55,868 nucleotides of DNA, from the IMG/VR virus record IMGVR_UViG_2645727563_000002, positions 1 through 55,868 of that record, one strand, 5' to 3'. Each line of letters opens with the position of its first letter. Position 1 is the first letter of the stretch. Position numbers and translations under genes: made by a program. Of the stretch, positions 12,131 to 18,722 are shown one piece after another. Under the pieces are notes generated by a model that was given only the letters and a program-made list of their open reading frames with translations, had not been told where the DNA came from and did not search any database. The DNA is from a virus. Lineage: Duplodnaviria; Heunggongvirae; Uroviricota; Caudoviricetes.

Positions 12131-12168
12131 AATAAACCGGCCAACATAGCCGGTTGGAAGGAAGGGTA

Positions 12169-12561
12169 TTATTCTACGCTTTCGATAAGAAGACCATGTT
12201 CATAACATTTAAGCTCATCGCCTTCGTACAGGAATTGGTATCCAATACCACCATTTTCATGGACATTAGGGAATAACTCATAACTCACTGAAGAGCAAAT
12301 CACACCAATGCAGCGATCAACGCCTTCTCGTTCTTCAGTGCTGAAAAAATCCTCTTCGGTAAGAACATGAGTACATTGCTCATCAGCATAGGTCGGAAAT
12401 ACATGCTCGATGCAATCCGGGTGTTTTAAACCAAGCTGATCGGCAAGCTCGAAAGCATGACGGTATTGTTCAGATCCTGGCTTGCCAACAGTGATGTGCT
12501 CAATTTTGTAGATTGAAGTCGCTTTGTTGATAGTTTGCTTTACTGTTACTTTATCAGACAT
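12169..12561 (-). CDS. hypothetical protein (130 aa)
   Basis: Intact ORF downstream of the spanin-like pair; no motif recognised. Confidence 0.45.
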   Translation of the reverse strand: MSDKVTVKQTINKATSIYKIEHITVGKPGSEQYRHAFELADQLGLKHPDCIEHVFPTYADEQCTHVLTEEDFFSTEEREGVDRCIGVICSSVSYELFPNVHENGGIGYQFLYEGDELKCYEHGLLIESVE

Positions 12562-12572
12562 AAAAATCCCTT

Positions 12573-12824
12573 TTAGTTACCGCTGATAGCGCGGTTGTAA
12601 TCATTAACGTTGCGATTCTTCCTGTTAATCCCCATCAGCATCGTTTCTGTATCGAGGATATACGCTGGCAGATCATCAAAATATTCACTGCTAAACTCTG
12701 GCATTCTGCACATAAATGCACTTTTGGGGGCAGGGTGGTTAACCTTTGTCGGCGTCGGCGTTAAATTCGCTGATCGACTCCCGGAGCAACCGCTGAGTGT
12801 CAGCAGGAATGCGCTGGCGAACAT
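12573..12824 (-). CDS. candidate o-spanin-like outer-membrane lipoprotein (Rz1-like)
   Basis: Lipobox LTLSGC after a hydrophobic signal, Pro-rich mature region (LTPTPTKVNHPAP); start lies inside the upstream gene in another frame; start uncertain (track ORF begins at 12905). Confidence 0.4.
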   Translation of the reverse strand: MFASAFLLTLSGCSGSRSANLTPTPTKVNHPAPKSAFMCRMPEFSSEYFDDLPAYILDTETMLMGINRKNRNVNDYNRAISGN

Positions 12825-13161
12825 TACCCGCCGCAACCAGTTGTTTCTGAACTTCAGCTTTTCGTTCCATTTGCCTGTCAGCATATTTGGCTTGTTCTGA
12901 TTCATTTTTCACTTCCTGGCTGTGAAAATGTTGCTCTGCTTTGTTCATCGTCTCAATGGTCTGGTTAAGATCCATTATTGACTTATCACGTTCCTTAACA
13001 GCCTGATCAAGACTGCCAATTTTCTCGATGGCTTGCTTTAGCTGATGACGTTCCCATGCAAACCCAGCACCAACAAGTGCGCAAATCAGAACAAGAACAC
13101 CAGTAGCAGCAAGTTTCTCCTTCAAAGACAAAGCTGTTTTTAACGTAGAAAAGAATGACAT
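12739..13161 (-). CDS. candidate i-spanin-like protein (N-terminal TM + coiled coil, about 140 aa)
   Basis: ATG at 13161 with AGGAGG RBS; TM segment ATGVLVLICALVGAGFAW then charged coiled-coil region. Confidence 0.4.
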   Translation of the reverse strand: MSFFSTLKTALSLKEKLAATGVLVLICALVGAGFAWERHQLKQAIEKIGSLDQAVKERDKSIMDLNQTIETMNKAEQHFHSQEVKNESEQAKYADRQMERKAEVQKQLVAAGNVRQRIPADTQRLLRESISEFNADADKG

Positions 13162-13200
13162 GTCTTCCTCCTGAAGAAAAATTATCAATGAAGTCCTTTG

Positions 13201-13989
13201 TTACTGTGCCGCTTTGTTTAATTCATCAAGAACAGAATCAGGAACCAAAGCGGCAACTGCGCTGGCTGTGCTGGCCTTATTTGCTGATGCTTCCGCAAGC
13301 GCGGTACCGATAGCATGGTTATAAGCAGTTATGGCTACGTTGGCGCTTTCATTCGCTCGTTCATACTGCTGTTGTAACGCAGTTGTGGGCGCTGTTGTCT
13401 GGTTGAAAACAACCCCAAACTGTTCAGTTGCTACTTTCAGAGATTCAATTTGCTCTTCTGTTAGTGCTGGTGGGGGAGTGGCAGTGCCGCCGCCTGAACC
13501 AGAGCCTGGCGAGCTTCCTGAGCCAGTGTTAAGGGTCTGGTTAATCTCCCCCATTGCAGCGACTAAACTTGATGTATTAAGCGCGTTAACAGCGTCCTCA
13601 AGCGATTTAGTAATATTCACATCACCAATGGCAATAGAGATCGGCAGTTCTGAAACTTCTCGCTCATTAGCACGGCAGTAAACATCCCAACCAATATCGA
13701 GTTGAAGCAGCATTGACAGATCTGCATAACCAGCCAACAGGTCCGCGTGCTTAGTTGCCAGTTCTCCAATGTTCGTTAAGCCGGTTGTGGTTGTTCTGAT
13801 CGTTGAAACATAGCTGGTAATAGTGTCGGGATAGACAATTGTATCCAGAATTAATCCGGTCAATTCTTCTGCAAGCAGTTTTGCTGTGTTAGCACTGTTT
13901 CGTGCCGATGTTATGGCACCAGGTGTTTTCATCCCACCGGCGGCGGCCAATTTTTTATATGCGGATAACTGGTAGTCTTTTTCCAGCAT
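13201..13989 (-). CDS. hypothetical protein (about 262 aa), Thr/Ser/Gly-rich
   Basis: ATG at 13989 preceded by AGGAG; low-complexity SGSSPGSGSGGG linker. Confidence 0.45.
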   Translation of the reverse strand: MLEKDYQLSAYKKLAAAGGMKTPGAITSARNSANTAKLLAEELTGLILDTIVYPDTITSYVSTIRTTTTGLTNIGELATKHADLLAGYADLSMLLQLDIGWDVYCRANEREVSELPISIAIGDVNITKSLEDAVNALNTSSLVAAMGEINQTLNTGSGSSPGSGSGGGTATPPPALTEEQIESLKVATEQFGVVFNQTTAPTTALQQQYERANESANVAITAYNHAIGTALAEASANKASTASAVAALVPDSVLDELNKAAQ

Positions 13990-13997
13990 GATATCTC

Positions 13998-14282
13998 CTA
14001 ACTTACCTGAACCAGGCCGTCTCCGGACGCTACGGTAGATCCGCATGAAACAGGGTCACCAACGCATACGACCCCTTTACCATTGACGGTAAACCATGTC
14101 CTGGTTGATATAGCTTGCCCACCGTGCGTACTGTTTCCATCGGTATGCTGTGCATATTGCTTACCATCAACTAACACTTCGACTCCGTTGACTTTAAGTA
14201 GTGGTTCACTCTCTACAGGAGGCCTGGATGGGAATCCTCTGTGCCCCGAACAAATGCTGTCTTTTGTTGCAATACTTGCCAC
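13998..14282 (-). CDS. PAAR-like spike-tip domain protein (94 aa)
   Basis: Repeated PAAR-type segments: CSGHRGF...VNGVEVLVDGK and THGGQAIS...VNGKGVVCVGDPVSCGSTVASG. Confidence 0.4.
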   Translation of the reverse strand: MASIATKDSICSGHRGFPSRPPVESEPLLKVNGVEVLVDGKQYAQHTDGNSTHGGQAISTRTWFTVNGKGVVCVGDPVSCGSTVASGDGLVQVS

Positions 14283-14363: not shown

Positions 14364-14380
14364 ATTGCTCTAATAAATAT
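14364..14380 (+). promoter_or_regulatory. C1 repressor operator
   Basis: attgctctaataaatat, 16/17 to the P1 operator consensus ATTGCTCTAATAAATTT; upstream of uhr-hrdC-dmt. Confidence 0.6.
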
Positions 14381-18568: not shown

Positions 18569-18644
18569 GATGGTGTAGCTCAGCGGTTAGAGCGGTTGAC
18601 TGTTAATCAACGGGTCGATGGTTCAAATCCATCCACCATCGCCA
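18569..18644 (+). tRNA. trnA: tRNA-Asn (GUU)
   Basis: Cloverleaf with acceptor gatggtg/caccatc, anticodon loop ctGTTaa, T-loop ttcaaat, encoded CCA. Confidence 0.85.
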
Positions 18645-18646
18645 AT

Positions 18647-18722
18647 GCCGGTTTAGCTCAGTTGGTAGAGCGCCTGCCTTGTAAGCAGGATGTCAGCGGT
18701 TCGAGTCCGTTAATCGGCACCA
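18647..18722 (+). tRNA. trnT: tRNA-Thr (UGU)
   Basis: Cloverleaf with anticodon loop ctTGTaa, T-loop ttcgagt, encoded CCA; starts 2 nt after tRNA-Asn. Confidence 0.85.

What the first reader, a model, noticed from the sequence alone, without database searches (positions are those of the whole stretch)
12573..13161. Overlapping i-spanin / o-spanin-like gene pair next to the replication origin
A 140-aa protein with an N-terminal transmembrane segment and periplasmic coiled coil (AGGAGG RBS) overlaps, in another frame, a lipoprotein with a lipobox (LTLSGC) and proline-rich mature region. This is the classic overlapped Rz/Rz1 spanin architecture, located far from any endolysin or holin in this window.
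Basis: inference. Interest (0 to 1): 0.45.

Follow-up and report, generated by a model that had tools for sequence, protein, structure and literature searches.

The report
Phage P1 spanin genes ppfA/mlp

Summary
ppfA (13161-12739, 140 aa) has an AGGAGG ribosome site, an N-terminal transmembrane helix and a long helical periplasmic domain. mlp (12905-12573, 110 aa) overlaps it by 167 nt in the +1 frame and carries the lipobox LTLSG|C.

The window is a P1-like phage-plasmid. PpfA is 100% identical to phage P1 gp064. Mlp differs from gp063 by two signal-peptide residues.

This pair was proposed as P1's Rz/Rz1 equivalents in 2007. The 2018 spanin database lists it as an "overlapped" two-component spanin forming its own family. 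It has never been tested experimentally.

My checks support a real, selected, two-gene unit:
- The mlp frame shows purifying selection.
- The overlapped lipoprotein ORF survives in every relative found, down to about 31% i-spanin identity.
- Both proteins have the phage P2 spanin subunits LysB and LysC as their best curated match, well below the family cut-offs.
- Published RNA-seq puts the operon in P1's late class.
- No endolysin or holin lies in the window, because P1's lysis genes are scattered.

Verdict: already known, interpretation supported, low interest.

The parts
12739..13161 (-). ppfA, the i-spanin candidate. 140 aa, type II inner-membrane protein, 100% identical to P1 gp064.
   Evidence: ORF and translation. 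tblastn 100% to NC_005856. phrog_89 'Rz-like spanin' at E 5e-25. SpaninDB entry.
13167..13172 (-). Shine-Dalgarno sequence AGGAGG of ppfA, 5 nt before the ATG.
   Evidence: Sequence. The same motif is recorded in SpaninDB.
13057..13113 (-). Transmembrane segment of PpfA, residues 17-35.
   Evidence: Kyte-Doolittle 19-residue maximum of 2.35. Part of the AF2 helix 13-110.
12742..13053 (-). Periplasmic domain of PpfA, residues 37-140. It has a long helix with heptad periodicity, a hinge at 111-119 and a conserved C-terminal helix (RQRIPADTQRLLRESISEFNA). It has no periplasmic Cys.
   Evidence: AF2 secondary structure. Heptad test. Conservation.
12573..12905 (-). mlp, the o-spanin candidate. 110-aa lipoprotein precursor in the +1 frame of ppfA. 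It differs from P1 gp063 by S7N and V32A.
   Evidence: phrog_30284 'Rz-like spanin' at E 2e-77.
12912..12917 (-). Shine-Dalgarno-like AGGAAG of mlp, 6 nt before the ATG, inside ppfA codons Q-E-V. It is AGGAGG or AGGAAG in four relatives and GAGG in the most distant one.
12789..12905 (-). Unusually long (39-aa) signal peptide of Mlp. It has a 27-aa basic N-region followed by a hydrophobic core.
   Evidence: SpaninDB notes 'too long signal sequence; LipoP cleavage at 39'. Cys is at residue 39 or 40 in all relatives.
12786..12797 (-). Lipobox L-S-G-C (residues 37-40). Cys40 would be the lipidated first residue of the mature protein.
   Evidence: Regex match. The Cys is invariant in 6 lineages.
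12576..12788 (-). Mature Mlp, 71 aa. It has a Pro/Thr-rich linker, an invariant second Cys (residue 66) in the motif MC-x-[ML]-P (AFMCRMPEF in the closest relatives), and a conserved tail (INRKNRNVNxYNRAI in the closest relatives; invariant across all six: N, K, N, V, N, Y, N).
   Evidence: Alignments. Purifying selection in this frame.
12739..12905 (-). The 167-nt stretch read in two frames. It encodes the PpfA C-terminus and, in the other frame, the Mlp signal peptide plus the first 16 mature residues.
   Evidence: This stretch has the lowest variability of the three segments: 31% variable sites against 51% and 38%.
13201..14282 (-). Upstream genes of the same leftward operon. upfC (13998-14282) is the PAAR spike tip. 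upfB (13201-14046) is the 'tripod' on the spike tip.
   Evidence: Cryo-EM assignment in PMC12810830. The same order is kept in the relatives with enough flanking sequence; in L014 only the UpfB-like C-terminus is visible.
12169..12561 (-). upfA, the last gene of the operon, 11 nt after mlp. Function unknown. It is replaced by a gp49_66-family gene in some relatives.
12141..12157 (-). Terminator-like hairpin followed by a T-run, just after upfA and before oriR.
   Evidence: Consensus scan only.

Best explanation
The two genes are ppfA and mlp of a P1-like phage-plasmid. They most likely encode a two-component spanin of the overlapped (P2-like) gene architecture.

Inferred mechanism, taken from the lambda Rz/Rz1 model:
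1. PpfA inserts into the inner membrane by its N-terminal helix. Its helical, coiled-coil-forming domain projects into the periplasm.
2. Mlp is exported, lipidated at Cys40 and cleaved by signal peptidase II. With Ser at +2 it is sorted to the inner leaflet of the outer membrane.
3. The conserved C-terminal parts of the two proteins bind each other. The complex then spans the periplasm through the peptidoglycan mesh. The invariant Cys66 of Mlp probably forms an intermolecular disulfide.
4. Both genes are made late, together with the tail-spike genes upfC and upfB.
5. The complexes stay inert until the holin LydA and the SAR endolysin Lyz destroy the peptidoglycan. Both are encoded elsewhere on the plasmid. 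The complexes can then cluster, collapse and fuse the inner and outer membranes, releasing the virions.

What is shown: gene structure, motifs, conservation of both frames, identity to P1 genes, late transcription.
What is inferred: lipidation, complex formation, membrane fusion.
For: Identity
- 94-99% nucleotide identity to P1-like phages.
- PpfA is 100% identical to P1 gp064.
- The P1 annotation has mlp and ppfA at the same place next to repA and oriR.

Prior classification
- SpaninDB lists P1 gp064/gp063 as 'ovl', with the same Shine-Dalgarno sequences and a LipoP cleavage site at residue 39.
- Bednarek 2022 cites Summer 2007 for the identification.

Anatomy
- Transmembrane segment, helices and heptads in PpfA.
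- Lipobox with Ser at +2 in Mlp.

Selection
- In the mlp-only segment, 39 of 63 variable sites are at mlp codon position 3.
- Synonymous:non-synonymous codon changes there are 20:10, 14:11 and 25:9 in the mlp frame. In the ppfA frame they are 2:30, 3:27 and 2:35.

Co-conservation
- The overlapped lipoprotein ORF is kept with its Shine-Dalgarno sequence, ATG, Cys39/40 and second Cys. This holds in Salmonella, Cronobacter and Klebsiella relatives, in a 94-kb viral contig and in a short metagenomic contig.
- i-spanin identity in these relatives runs from about 60% down to 31%.

Link to a tested spanin
- P2 LysB belongs to phrog_89 (6e-61). PpfA hits the same profile over its full length (5e-25).
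- P2 LysC and Mlp cross-hit each other's PHROG families.
- The best NCBIfam hit of PpfA is LysB. The only hit of Mlp is LysC, and 5 of 6 Mlp relatives hit LysC.
- hhalign of the Mlp family against LysC gives probability 87%, E 3.8e-6 and 34% identity over 64 columns. The lipobox Cys, the Pro-rich linker and the second Cys are aligned.

Timing (Table S1 of PMC8201110)
- upfC, upfB, ppfA, mlp and upfA are low at 10 min (4.1-5.6) and high at 30 min (10.5-11.2).
- lyz (6.1 to 11.3), lydA (5.2 to 11.8) and gene 23 (5.4 to 12.1) behave the same way.
- The neighbouring early genes uhr, hrdC and dmt are already at 8.6-9.4 at 10 min.
Against: - There is no experimental demonstration. Bednarek 2022 states that the function has not been verified.
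- CRISPRi knockdown gave an efficiency of plating of 1.2-1.3 for ppfA and 0.19-0.24 for mlp, and both were scored non-essential.
- The pair is not next to any lysis gene.
- It fails the curated cut-offs of the LysB and LysC families. PpfA scores 18.2 against 92.75 bits and Mlp 14.3 against 27 bits.
- The i-spanin profile-profile match to the LysB family is weak: probability 50% over only 49 columns that include the transmembrane end.
- The phrog_89 score may be inflated if P1 PpfA is itself a member of that PHROG.
- The signal peptide is atypically long. PROSITE does not recognise it, according to SpaninDB.
- No Lpa-type late promoter motif lies near the operon within one mismatch.
Confidence: 0.85

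Rival explanations
1. PpfA and Mlp are envelope proteins with a non-lytic role for the plasmid prophage. Mlp could, for example, be a lipoprotein that blocks a receptor or modifies the surface, as Cor, Llp or Bor do. Both would be expressed from the sigma-70 promoters predicted inside upfB.
For: - The P1 record annotates two predicted sigma-70 promoters (P1ppfA, P2ppfA) just upstream of ppfA.
- Knockdown does not prevent plaque formation.
- The genes sit beside the plasmid maintenance region, not beside lysis genes.
Against: - Transcript levels follow the late lytic class and are low at 10 min.
- The two proteins are always kept together as an overlapped pair with the exact spanin topology.
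- Each has the matching P2 spanin subunit as its best curated hit.
- The predicted promoters were not recovered by a consensus scan.
Confidence: 0.07
2. The pair works with the tail-spike tip proteins UpfC and UpfB encoded just upstream. It might act in assembly of the membrane-piercing apparatus or in genome delivery, rather than in lysis.
For: - The order upfC-upfB-ppfA-mlp is kept in the relatives with enough flanking sequence.
- The most distant case (L014) also ends with a UpfB-like C-terminus directly before the ppfA homologue.
- UpfC and UpfB are baseplate spike components.
Against: - Neither ppfA nor mlp is mentioned in the main text or tables of the P1 virion proteome paper.
- Neither is named among the proteins of the cryo-EM structure.
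- An inner-membrane anchor plus an outer-membrane lipoprotein signal direct both proteins into the producing cell's envelope, not into virions.
- In P2 the tested spanin genes lysB and lysC are also directly followed by tail genes R and S. Linkage to tail genes is therefore not unusual.
Confidence: 0.05
3. mlp is not a gene. It would be a chance open reading frame overlapping ppfA and the spacer before upfA.
For: Many database records annotate only its 3' tail or nothing at all.
Against: - The frame-specific substitution pattern shows purifying selection in the mlp frame.
- The Shine-Dalgarno sequence, start codon, lipobox Cys and 24 invariant residues are kept across six lineages.
- Transcript is detected.
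Confidence: 0.01

Closest known systems
Phage P1 ppfA (gp064) / mlp (gp063), the 'P1' family in the SpaninDB of Kongari et al. 2018
   Same: It is the same locus.
- PpfA is 100% identical and mature Mlp is 100% identical.
- The Shine-Dalgarno sequences, the 167-nt +1 overlap and the neighbours (upfA, upfB, upfC, repA/oriR) are all the same.
   Different: There are two substitutions in the Mlp signal peptide, S7N and V32A.
Phage P2 LysB / LysC, the overlapped two-component spanin (NCBIfam TIGR03495 and NF038368; phrog_89 and phrog_456)
   Same: - Both have the overlapped architecture in the +1 frame and similar sizes (141/96 aa against 140/110 aa).
- The i-spanin has an N-terminal transmembrane segment and helical domains.
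- The o-spanin has a lipobox, a Pro-rich linker and a second Cys followed by x-M-P.
- Both proteins give reciprocal PHROG and NCBIfam best hits.
   Different: - Scores are far below the curated family cut-offs.
- The i-spanin profile match is weak.
- P2's pair lies inside the lysis cassette Y-K-lysA-lysB-lysC, while P1's is unlinked to lysis genes.
- The Mlp signal peptide is 39 aa long.
Phage lambda Rz / Rz1, the embedded two-component spanin (phrog_13 and phrog_3198)
   Same: - The same predicted topology, with an inner-membrane helical protein and an outer-membrane lipoprotein in the +1 frame.
- The same presumed mechanism.
- At least one periplasmic Cys is available for a disulfide.
   Different: - Rz1 is wholly embedded in Rz, while mlp extends 166 nt beyond ppfA.
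- The sequence families are different, and the only shared PHROG hits are weak secondary ones (phrog_214, phrog_739, phrog_456). No Pfam family reaches its gathering score for PpfA, and Mlp has no Pfam hit at E <= 0.1.
- PpfA has no periplasmic Cys, whereas Rz has two.
- Mlp is longer and less proline-rich than Rz1.

Membership tests
Two-component spanin (functional class, criteria of Summer 2007 / Kongari 2018) | The i-spanin is a type II inner-membrane protein with a single N-terminal transmembrane segment. | tested here: met
   Residues 17-35 have a Kyte-Doolittle mean of 2.35, and no other hydrophobic segment is present. The segment lies in a helix in the AF2 model.
Two-component spanin (functional class, criteria of Summer 2007 / Kongari 2018) | The periplasmic domain of the i-spanin is largely alpha-helical or coiled-coil, in two helical parts separated by a linker. 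| tested here: met
   AF2 gives helices at 13-110 and 120-138 with a break at 111-119. Heptad periodicity was reached by 2 of 1000 shuffles. No dedicated coiled-coil program was available.
Two-component spanin (functional class, criteria of Summer 2007 / Kongari 2018) | The o-spanin has an outer-membrane lipoprotein signal: a lipobox with Cys and no inner-membrane retention residue (Asp) at +2. | tested here: met
   The site is LTLSG|C followed by S-G. The Cys is invariant in 6 lineages. SpaninDB records a LipoP cleavage site at 39 and no PROSITE hit because of the long N-region. Actual lipidation is not testable here.
Two-component spanin (functional class, criteria of Summer 2007 / Kongari 2018) | The two genes are adjacent in one of three architectures: embedded, overlapped or separated. 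| tested here: met
   Overlapped, with 167 nt shared, and mlp in the +1 frame extending 166 nt past the ppfA stop.
Two-component spanin (functional class, criteria of Summer 2007 / Kongari 2018) | At least one periplasmic cysteine in either subunit. This holds for 507 of 528 known systems. | tested here: met
   PpfA has none. Mature Mlp has one besides the lipidated Cys, at residue 66, and it is invariant.
Two-component spanin (functional class, criteria of Summer 2007 / Kongari 2018) | Expression late in infection, together with the other lysis functions. | tested here: met
   Published RNA-seq table for P1vir: ppfA goes from 5.6 to 11.2 and mlp from 4.1 to 10.5 between 10 and 30 min, like lyz and lydA. 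This is literature data on P1, not on this exact element.
Two-component spanin (functional class, criteria of Summer 2007 / Kongari 2018) | Outer-membrane disruption activity: complementation of a lambda Rz/Rz1 defect, or a spherical-cell lysis block in mutants. | not testable with these tools
   The function is stated as never verified for P1. CRISPRi scored both genes non-essential for plaque formation.
P2 LysB family (NCBIfam TIGR03495, equivalog) | Whole-protein score at or above the curated cut-off of 92.75 bits. | tested here: not met
   PpfA scores 18.2 bits at E 0.0023. This is its best hit, but far below the cut-off. P2 LysB itself scores 174.5 bits. Profile-profile comparison with the LysB family gives probability 50%.
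P2 LysC family (NCBIfam NF038368 P2_Rz1, equivalog) | Whole-protein score at or above the curated cut-off of 27 bits. | tested here: not met
   Mlp scores 14.3 bits. The best relative scores 19.2 bits. Five of 6 relatives hit only this model. hhalign gives 87% probability of remote homology.
Lambda Rz / Rz1 family (phrog_13 / phrog_3198) | Sequence membership, and an o-spanin gene wholly embedded in the i-spanin gene. | tested here: not met
   The best PHROG families differ. Lambda gives phrog_13 and phrog_3198, while the window pair gives phrog_89 and phrog_30284. No Pfam family reaches its gathering score for PpfA, and Mlp has no Pfam hit at E <= 0.1. The architecture is overlapped, not embedded.

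The most novel reading that the evidence does not exclude
The P1-type pair might be more than a routine spanin. In every relative found it is tied to the spike-tip and tripod genes upfC-upfB rather than to lysis genes. It shows late kinetics without a recognisable Lpa late promoter. Its o-spanin always carries a 39-40-residue signal peptide with a 27-residue basic extension, and knockdown does not stop plaque formation. One reading not excluded is that the long N-extension delays or regulates export of the lipoprotein, acting as a built-in timer. Another is that the pair has a second, non-lytic envelope role linked to the tail-spike module.
Probability: 0.08. Interest if true: 0.4.

Novelty: already known. 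Interest (0 to 1): 0.1.

Why it matters
It matters little for discovery. The pair has been in the P1 annotation since 2004 (as mlp and ppfA), in the spanin literature since 2007 and in the spanin database since 2018.

It has some practical value:
- Many P1-like records still annotate only the tail of mlp or miss it, and one paper swaps the i- and o-spanin labels.
- The P1 spanin remains one of the untested spanin families in a workhorse phage whose lysis genes are unusually scattered. A simple complementation test would close that gap.

Tried and rejected
- Relatives outside P1-like elements. I looked for any that sit in a classical lysis cassette. The word-indexed protein search found only ppfA homologues down to 59% identity. 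The exhaustive HMM search of 1.84 billion representatives found only three further full-length relatives, and the rest were fragments or unrelated long coiled-coil proteins. tblastn against 50,697 phage records found only P1-like phages and Cronobacter phage JK004.
- Searches that gave nothing. P0084 was not found in viral, genome or metagenome contigs. Only a 1.2-kb contig carried it.
- Alternative mlp start at codon 24. It is TTG here and ATG in three relatives, and would give a canonical 16-aa signal peptide. I rejected it as the general start because the codon is TTA in the most distant relative and has no Shine-Dalgarno sequence. The first ATG has a conserved Shine-Dalgarno sequence in all six lineages.
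- Late promoter. The motif AAGTKAYTT-N4-YANNMT, derived from LPlyz, LPdar and LPmat, does not occur near the operon. The intergenic alignment upstream of upfC shows only a conserved C1-operator-like site and a -10-like TAAAAT. The promoter remains unresolved.
- Papers not held. Summer 2007 and the 2004 P1 genome paper could not be read. A bare search for 'ppfA' returned only unrelated acronyms.
- Fold search. I did not run one on the PpfA model, because a long single helix gives meaningless matches.

Full report
**What is there**

The finding lies on the minus strand.

ppfA:
- It runs from the ATG at 13161 to a stop at 12739-12741 and encodes 140 aa.
- AGGAGG sits five bases upstream of the ATG.
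- Residues 17-35 (LAATGVLVLICALVGAGFA) are the only strongly hydrophobic stretch, with a Kyte-Doolittle mean of 2.35.

mlp:
- It starts at the ATG at 12905, 256 nt downstream of the ppfA start, so it is in the +1 frame.
- It shares 167 nt with ppfA, continues 166 nt past the ppfA stop and ends at 12573-12575.
- Its 110-aa product reads MNQNKPNMLTGKWNEKLKFRNNWLRRVMFASAFLLTLSG|CSGS..., a lipobox with Cys40 followed by Ser-Gly.

"Proline-rich" holds only locally. The stretch TPTPTKVNHPAP has 4 prolines in 12 residues, and the whole mature protein has 6 Pro in 71.

**What the window is**

- The 2.1 kb around the pair matches P1-like phages at 94-99% nucleotide identity. The rest of the window matches the P1 right half: genes 21-23, par, repA, dmt, ban, pac, c1 and cre.
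- In the P1 reference record the two genes are mlp (gp063, "membrane lipoprotein precursor") and ppfA (gp064, "possible periplasmic function").
- They lie in a leftward block upfC-upfB-ppfA-mlp-upfA that ends next to oriR and repA.
- PpfA is 100% identical to P1's. Mature Mlp is identical, and the precursor differs only at S7N and V32A.

**Already described**

- The supplementary table of Kongari et al. 2018 (PMC6139136) lists P1 gp064/gp063 as an overlapped two-component spanin forming its own family "P1". It gives the same Shine-Dalgarno sequences. It carries the remarks "too long signal sequence", "LipoP server finds cleavage site at 39th position", no periplasmic Cys in the i-spanin and one in the o-spanin.
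- Bednarek et al. 2022 (PMC9025707) credit Summer et al. 2007 with the identification. [quoted passage not shown] Their sentence swaps the o- and i- labels.
- A genome-wide CRISPRi study scored both genes non-essential for plaque formation. Efficiency of plating was 1.2-1.3 for ppfA and 0.19-0.24 for mlp.

**Is mlp a real gene, and is the pair a unit?**

I collected relatives of decreasing similarity:
- Salmonella, Cronobacter and Klebsiella phage-plasmid contigs, with i-spanin identity about 60%.
- A 94-kb viral contig, about 31-40%.
- A 1.2-kb metagenomic contig, about 31% to that contig's protein.

All carry an overlapping lipoprotein ORF in the same frame with these features:
- a Shine-Dalgarno sequence before the first ATG;
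- Cys at residue 39 or 40;
- a second invariant Cys in MC-x-[ML]-P;
- a conserved tail with an invariant N-x-K-N-x-x-V-N-x-Y-N pattern (INRKNRNVNxYNRAI in the closest relatives).

The 589-nt region aligns without gaps among the five closest lineages. This allowed a frame-specific count:

| Segment | Variable sites | Where they fall | Synonymous:non-synonymous codon changes (window vs three relatives) |
|---|---|---|---|
| mlp-only | 63 of 166 (38%) | 39 at mlp codon position 3 | mlp frame 20:10, 14:11, 25:9; ppfA frame 2:30, 3:27, 2:35 |
| ppfA-only | 131 of 256 (51%) | 64 at ppfA codon position 3 | ppfA frame 22:44, 21:39, 20:42 |
| overlap | 52 of 167 (31%) | 29 at ppfA codon position 3 | ppfA frame 14:13, 14:12, 16:13 |

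Both genes are therefore under purifying selection, and the overlap is the least variable part. A chance ORF is excluded.

**Structure**

- AlphaFold2 with an 11-sequence alignment gives one helix from residue 13 to 110 (the transmembrane segment continuing into the periplasm). It then gives a break at 111-119 and a second helix at 120-138. Mean pLDDT is 72. This is the alpha1-linker-alpha2 layout described for i-spanins.
- A simple heptad test finds hydrophobic a/d periodicity around residues 45-76 that only 2 of 1000 shuffles reach.
- The most conserved part of PpfA is its C-terminal helix, RQRIPADTQRLLRESISEFNA.

**Relation to tested spanins**

- PpfA matches phrog_89 at E 5e-25 over nearly its full length. 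P2 LysB belongs to the same PHROG (6e-61).
- Mlp matches phrog_456 (4e-5), the family of P2 LysC (2e-31). LysC in turn hits Mlp's own phrog_30284 (5e-4).
- In NCBIfam the best hit of PpfA is the LysB model, at 18.2 bits against a cut-off of 92.75. The only hit of Mlp is the LysC model, at 14.3 bits against a cut-off of 27. Five of six Mlp relatives hit that model and little else.
- Profile-profile comparison of the Mlp family with LysC gives 87% probability, E 3.8e-6 and 34% identity over 64 columns. The lipobox Cys, the Pro-rich linker and the second Cys are aligned.
- For PpfA against a LysB family alignment the match is weak, at 50% over 49 columns.

The pair is therefore not a member of the LysB/LysC equivalog families. 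It is probably a remote relative with the same overlapped architecture. Lambda Rz and Rz1 have different best families and an embedded architecture.

**Context and timing**

- No homologue of P1 Lyz or LydA-E occurs in the window. In P1 these genes lie at about 20-21 kb and 30-31.5 kb, and ppfA/mlp at 63.4-63.9 kb.
- The upstream genes encode the PAAR spike tip UpfC and the "tripod" UpfB of the baseplate.
- The order upfC-upfB-ppfA-mlp is kept in the relatives with enough flanking sequence. In the most distant one only the UpfB-like C-terminus upstream is visible.
- In the RNA-seq table of PMC8201110 the five genes are low at 10 min (4.1-5.6) and high at 30 min (10.5-11.2). The late genes lyz, lydA/B, 22, 23 and pacA behave the same way. 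The adjacent early genes uhr, hrdC and dmt are already at 8.6-9.4 at 10 min.
- A late-promoter motif derived from LPlyz, LPdar and LPmat occurs 7 times in the window against 1 expected, but not near this operon.
- Upstream of upfC there is only a C1 operator (14364-14380) and a conserved -10-like TAAAAT. The promoter responsible is unresolved.

**Most likely mechanism (inferred from the lambda model, not shown here)**

1. PpfA is anchored in the inner membrane.
2. Mlp is lipidated at Cys40, cleaved and sent to the outer membrane.
3. Their conserved C-terminal parts bind across the periplasm, and Mlp Cys66 forms a stabilising disulfide.
4. After LydA and Lyz remove the peptidoglycan, the complexes fuse the two membranes.

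Confidence that this is P1 ppfA/mlp is essentially 1. Confidence that it functions as a spanin is about 0.85.

The main doubts are the absence of any experiment and the non-essential CRISPRi score. Bednarek 2022 notes that spanins are dispensable for lysis in shaken laboratory cultures. Dispensability in that setting is therefore not evidence against the role.

**Verdict**

The feature is already known, and interest is low.

Noticed in passing
window 12573-12905 (-); L002 2075-2215; L012 12966-13097; L005-L007: Database records are inconsistent about mlp. P1 and P7 RefSeq annotate the full 110 aa. Several P1-like records and metagenome gene calls annotate only the non-overlapping 43-52-aa tail, or nothing. 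One paper (PMC9025707) calls ppfA the o-spanin and mlp the i-spanin, which is the reverse of the sequence features.
   Followed up: yes
L005 4260-4589, L007 4260-4589: The Salmonella and Klebsiella relatives of Mlp have Asn at lipobox position -2 (LTLNGC, LTLNAC). This is atypical for the usual [LVI][ASTVI][GAS]C rule.
   Followed up: partly
window 12834-12836 (-), codon 24 of mlp: This codon is TTG here and in P1, ATG in three relatives, TTG in a fourth and TTA in the most distant. Starting here would give a canonical 16-aa lipoprotein signal peptide. There is no Shine-Dalgarno sequence before it, so the first ATG remains the better start.
   Followed up: yes
window 14364-14380 (+), and 17886, 17897, 27744, 31418, 33510, 50417, 50500: There are eight matches to the P1 C1-repressor operator ATTGCTCTAATAAATWT, against 0.04 expected. 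The one at 14364 lies between upfC and uhr. Its core (TTATTAGA[AG]C) is largely conserved in the Salmonella, Cronobacter and Klebsiella relatives.
   Followed up: partly
window 279, 5695, 5757, 25996, 39961, 46251, 53254: There are seven matches to a P1 late-promoter-like motif (AAGTKAYTT-N4-YANNMT), against about 1 expected. Examples are 5757 (-) and 53254 (+). None lies near the ppfA operon, although that operon has late kinetics.
   Followed up: partly
window 18569-18644, 18647-18722, 20154-20229 (+): Three tRNA genes are present (Asn-GTT, Thr-TGT, Met-CAT). The first two sit in tandem, as in P1-like phages.
   Followed up: no
window 12141-12157 (-): A terminator-like hairpin with a T-run lies 12 nt after the upfA stop, between the operon and oriR.
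   Followed up: no
window 12169-12561 (-); L005 4600-4953; L006 4600-4959: The gene after mlp is not conserved. P1-like elements have upfA (phrog_1453, unknown function), while Salmonella and Cronobacter relatives have a Phage_gp49_66-family gene in that position. The Cronobacter contig carries a further 129-aa ORF after it that was not identified.
   Followed up: no
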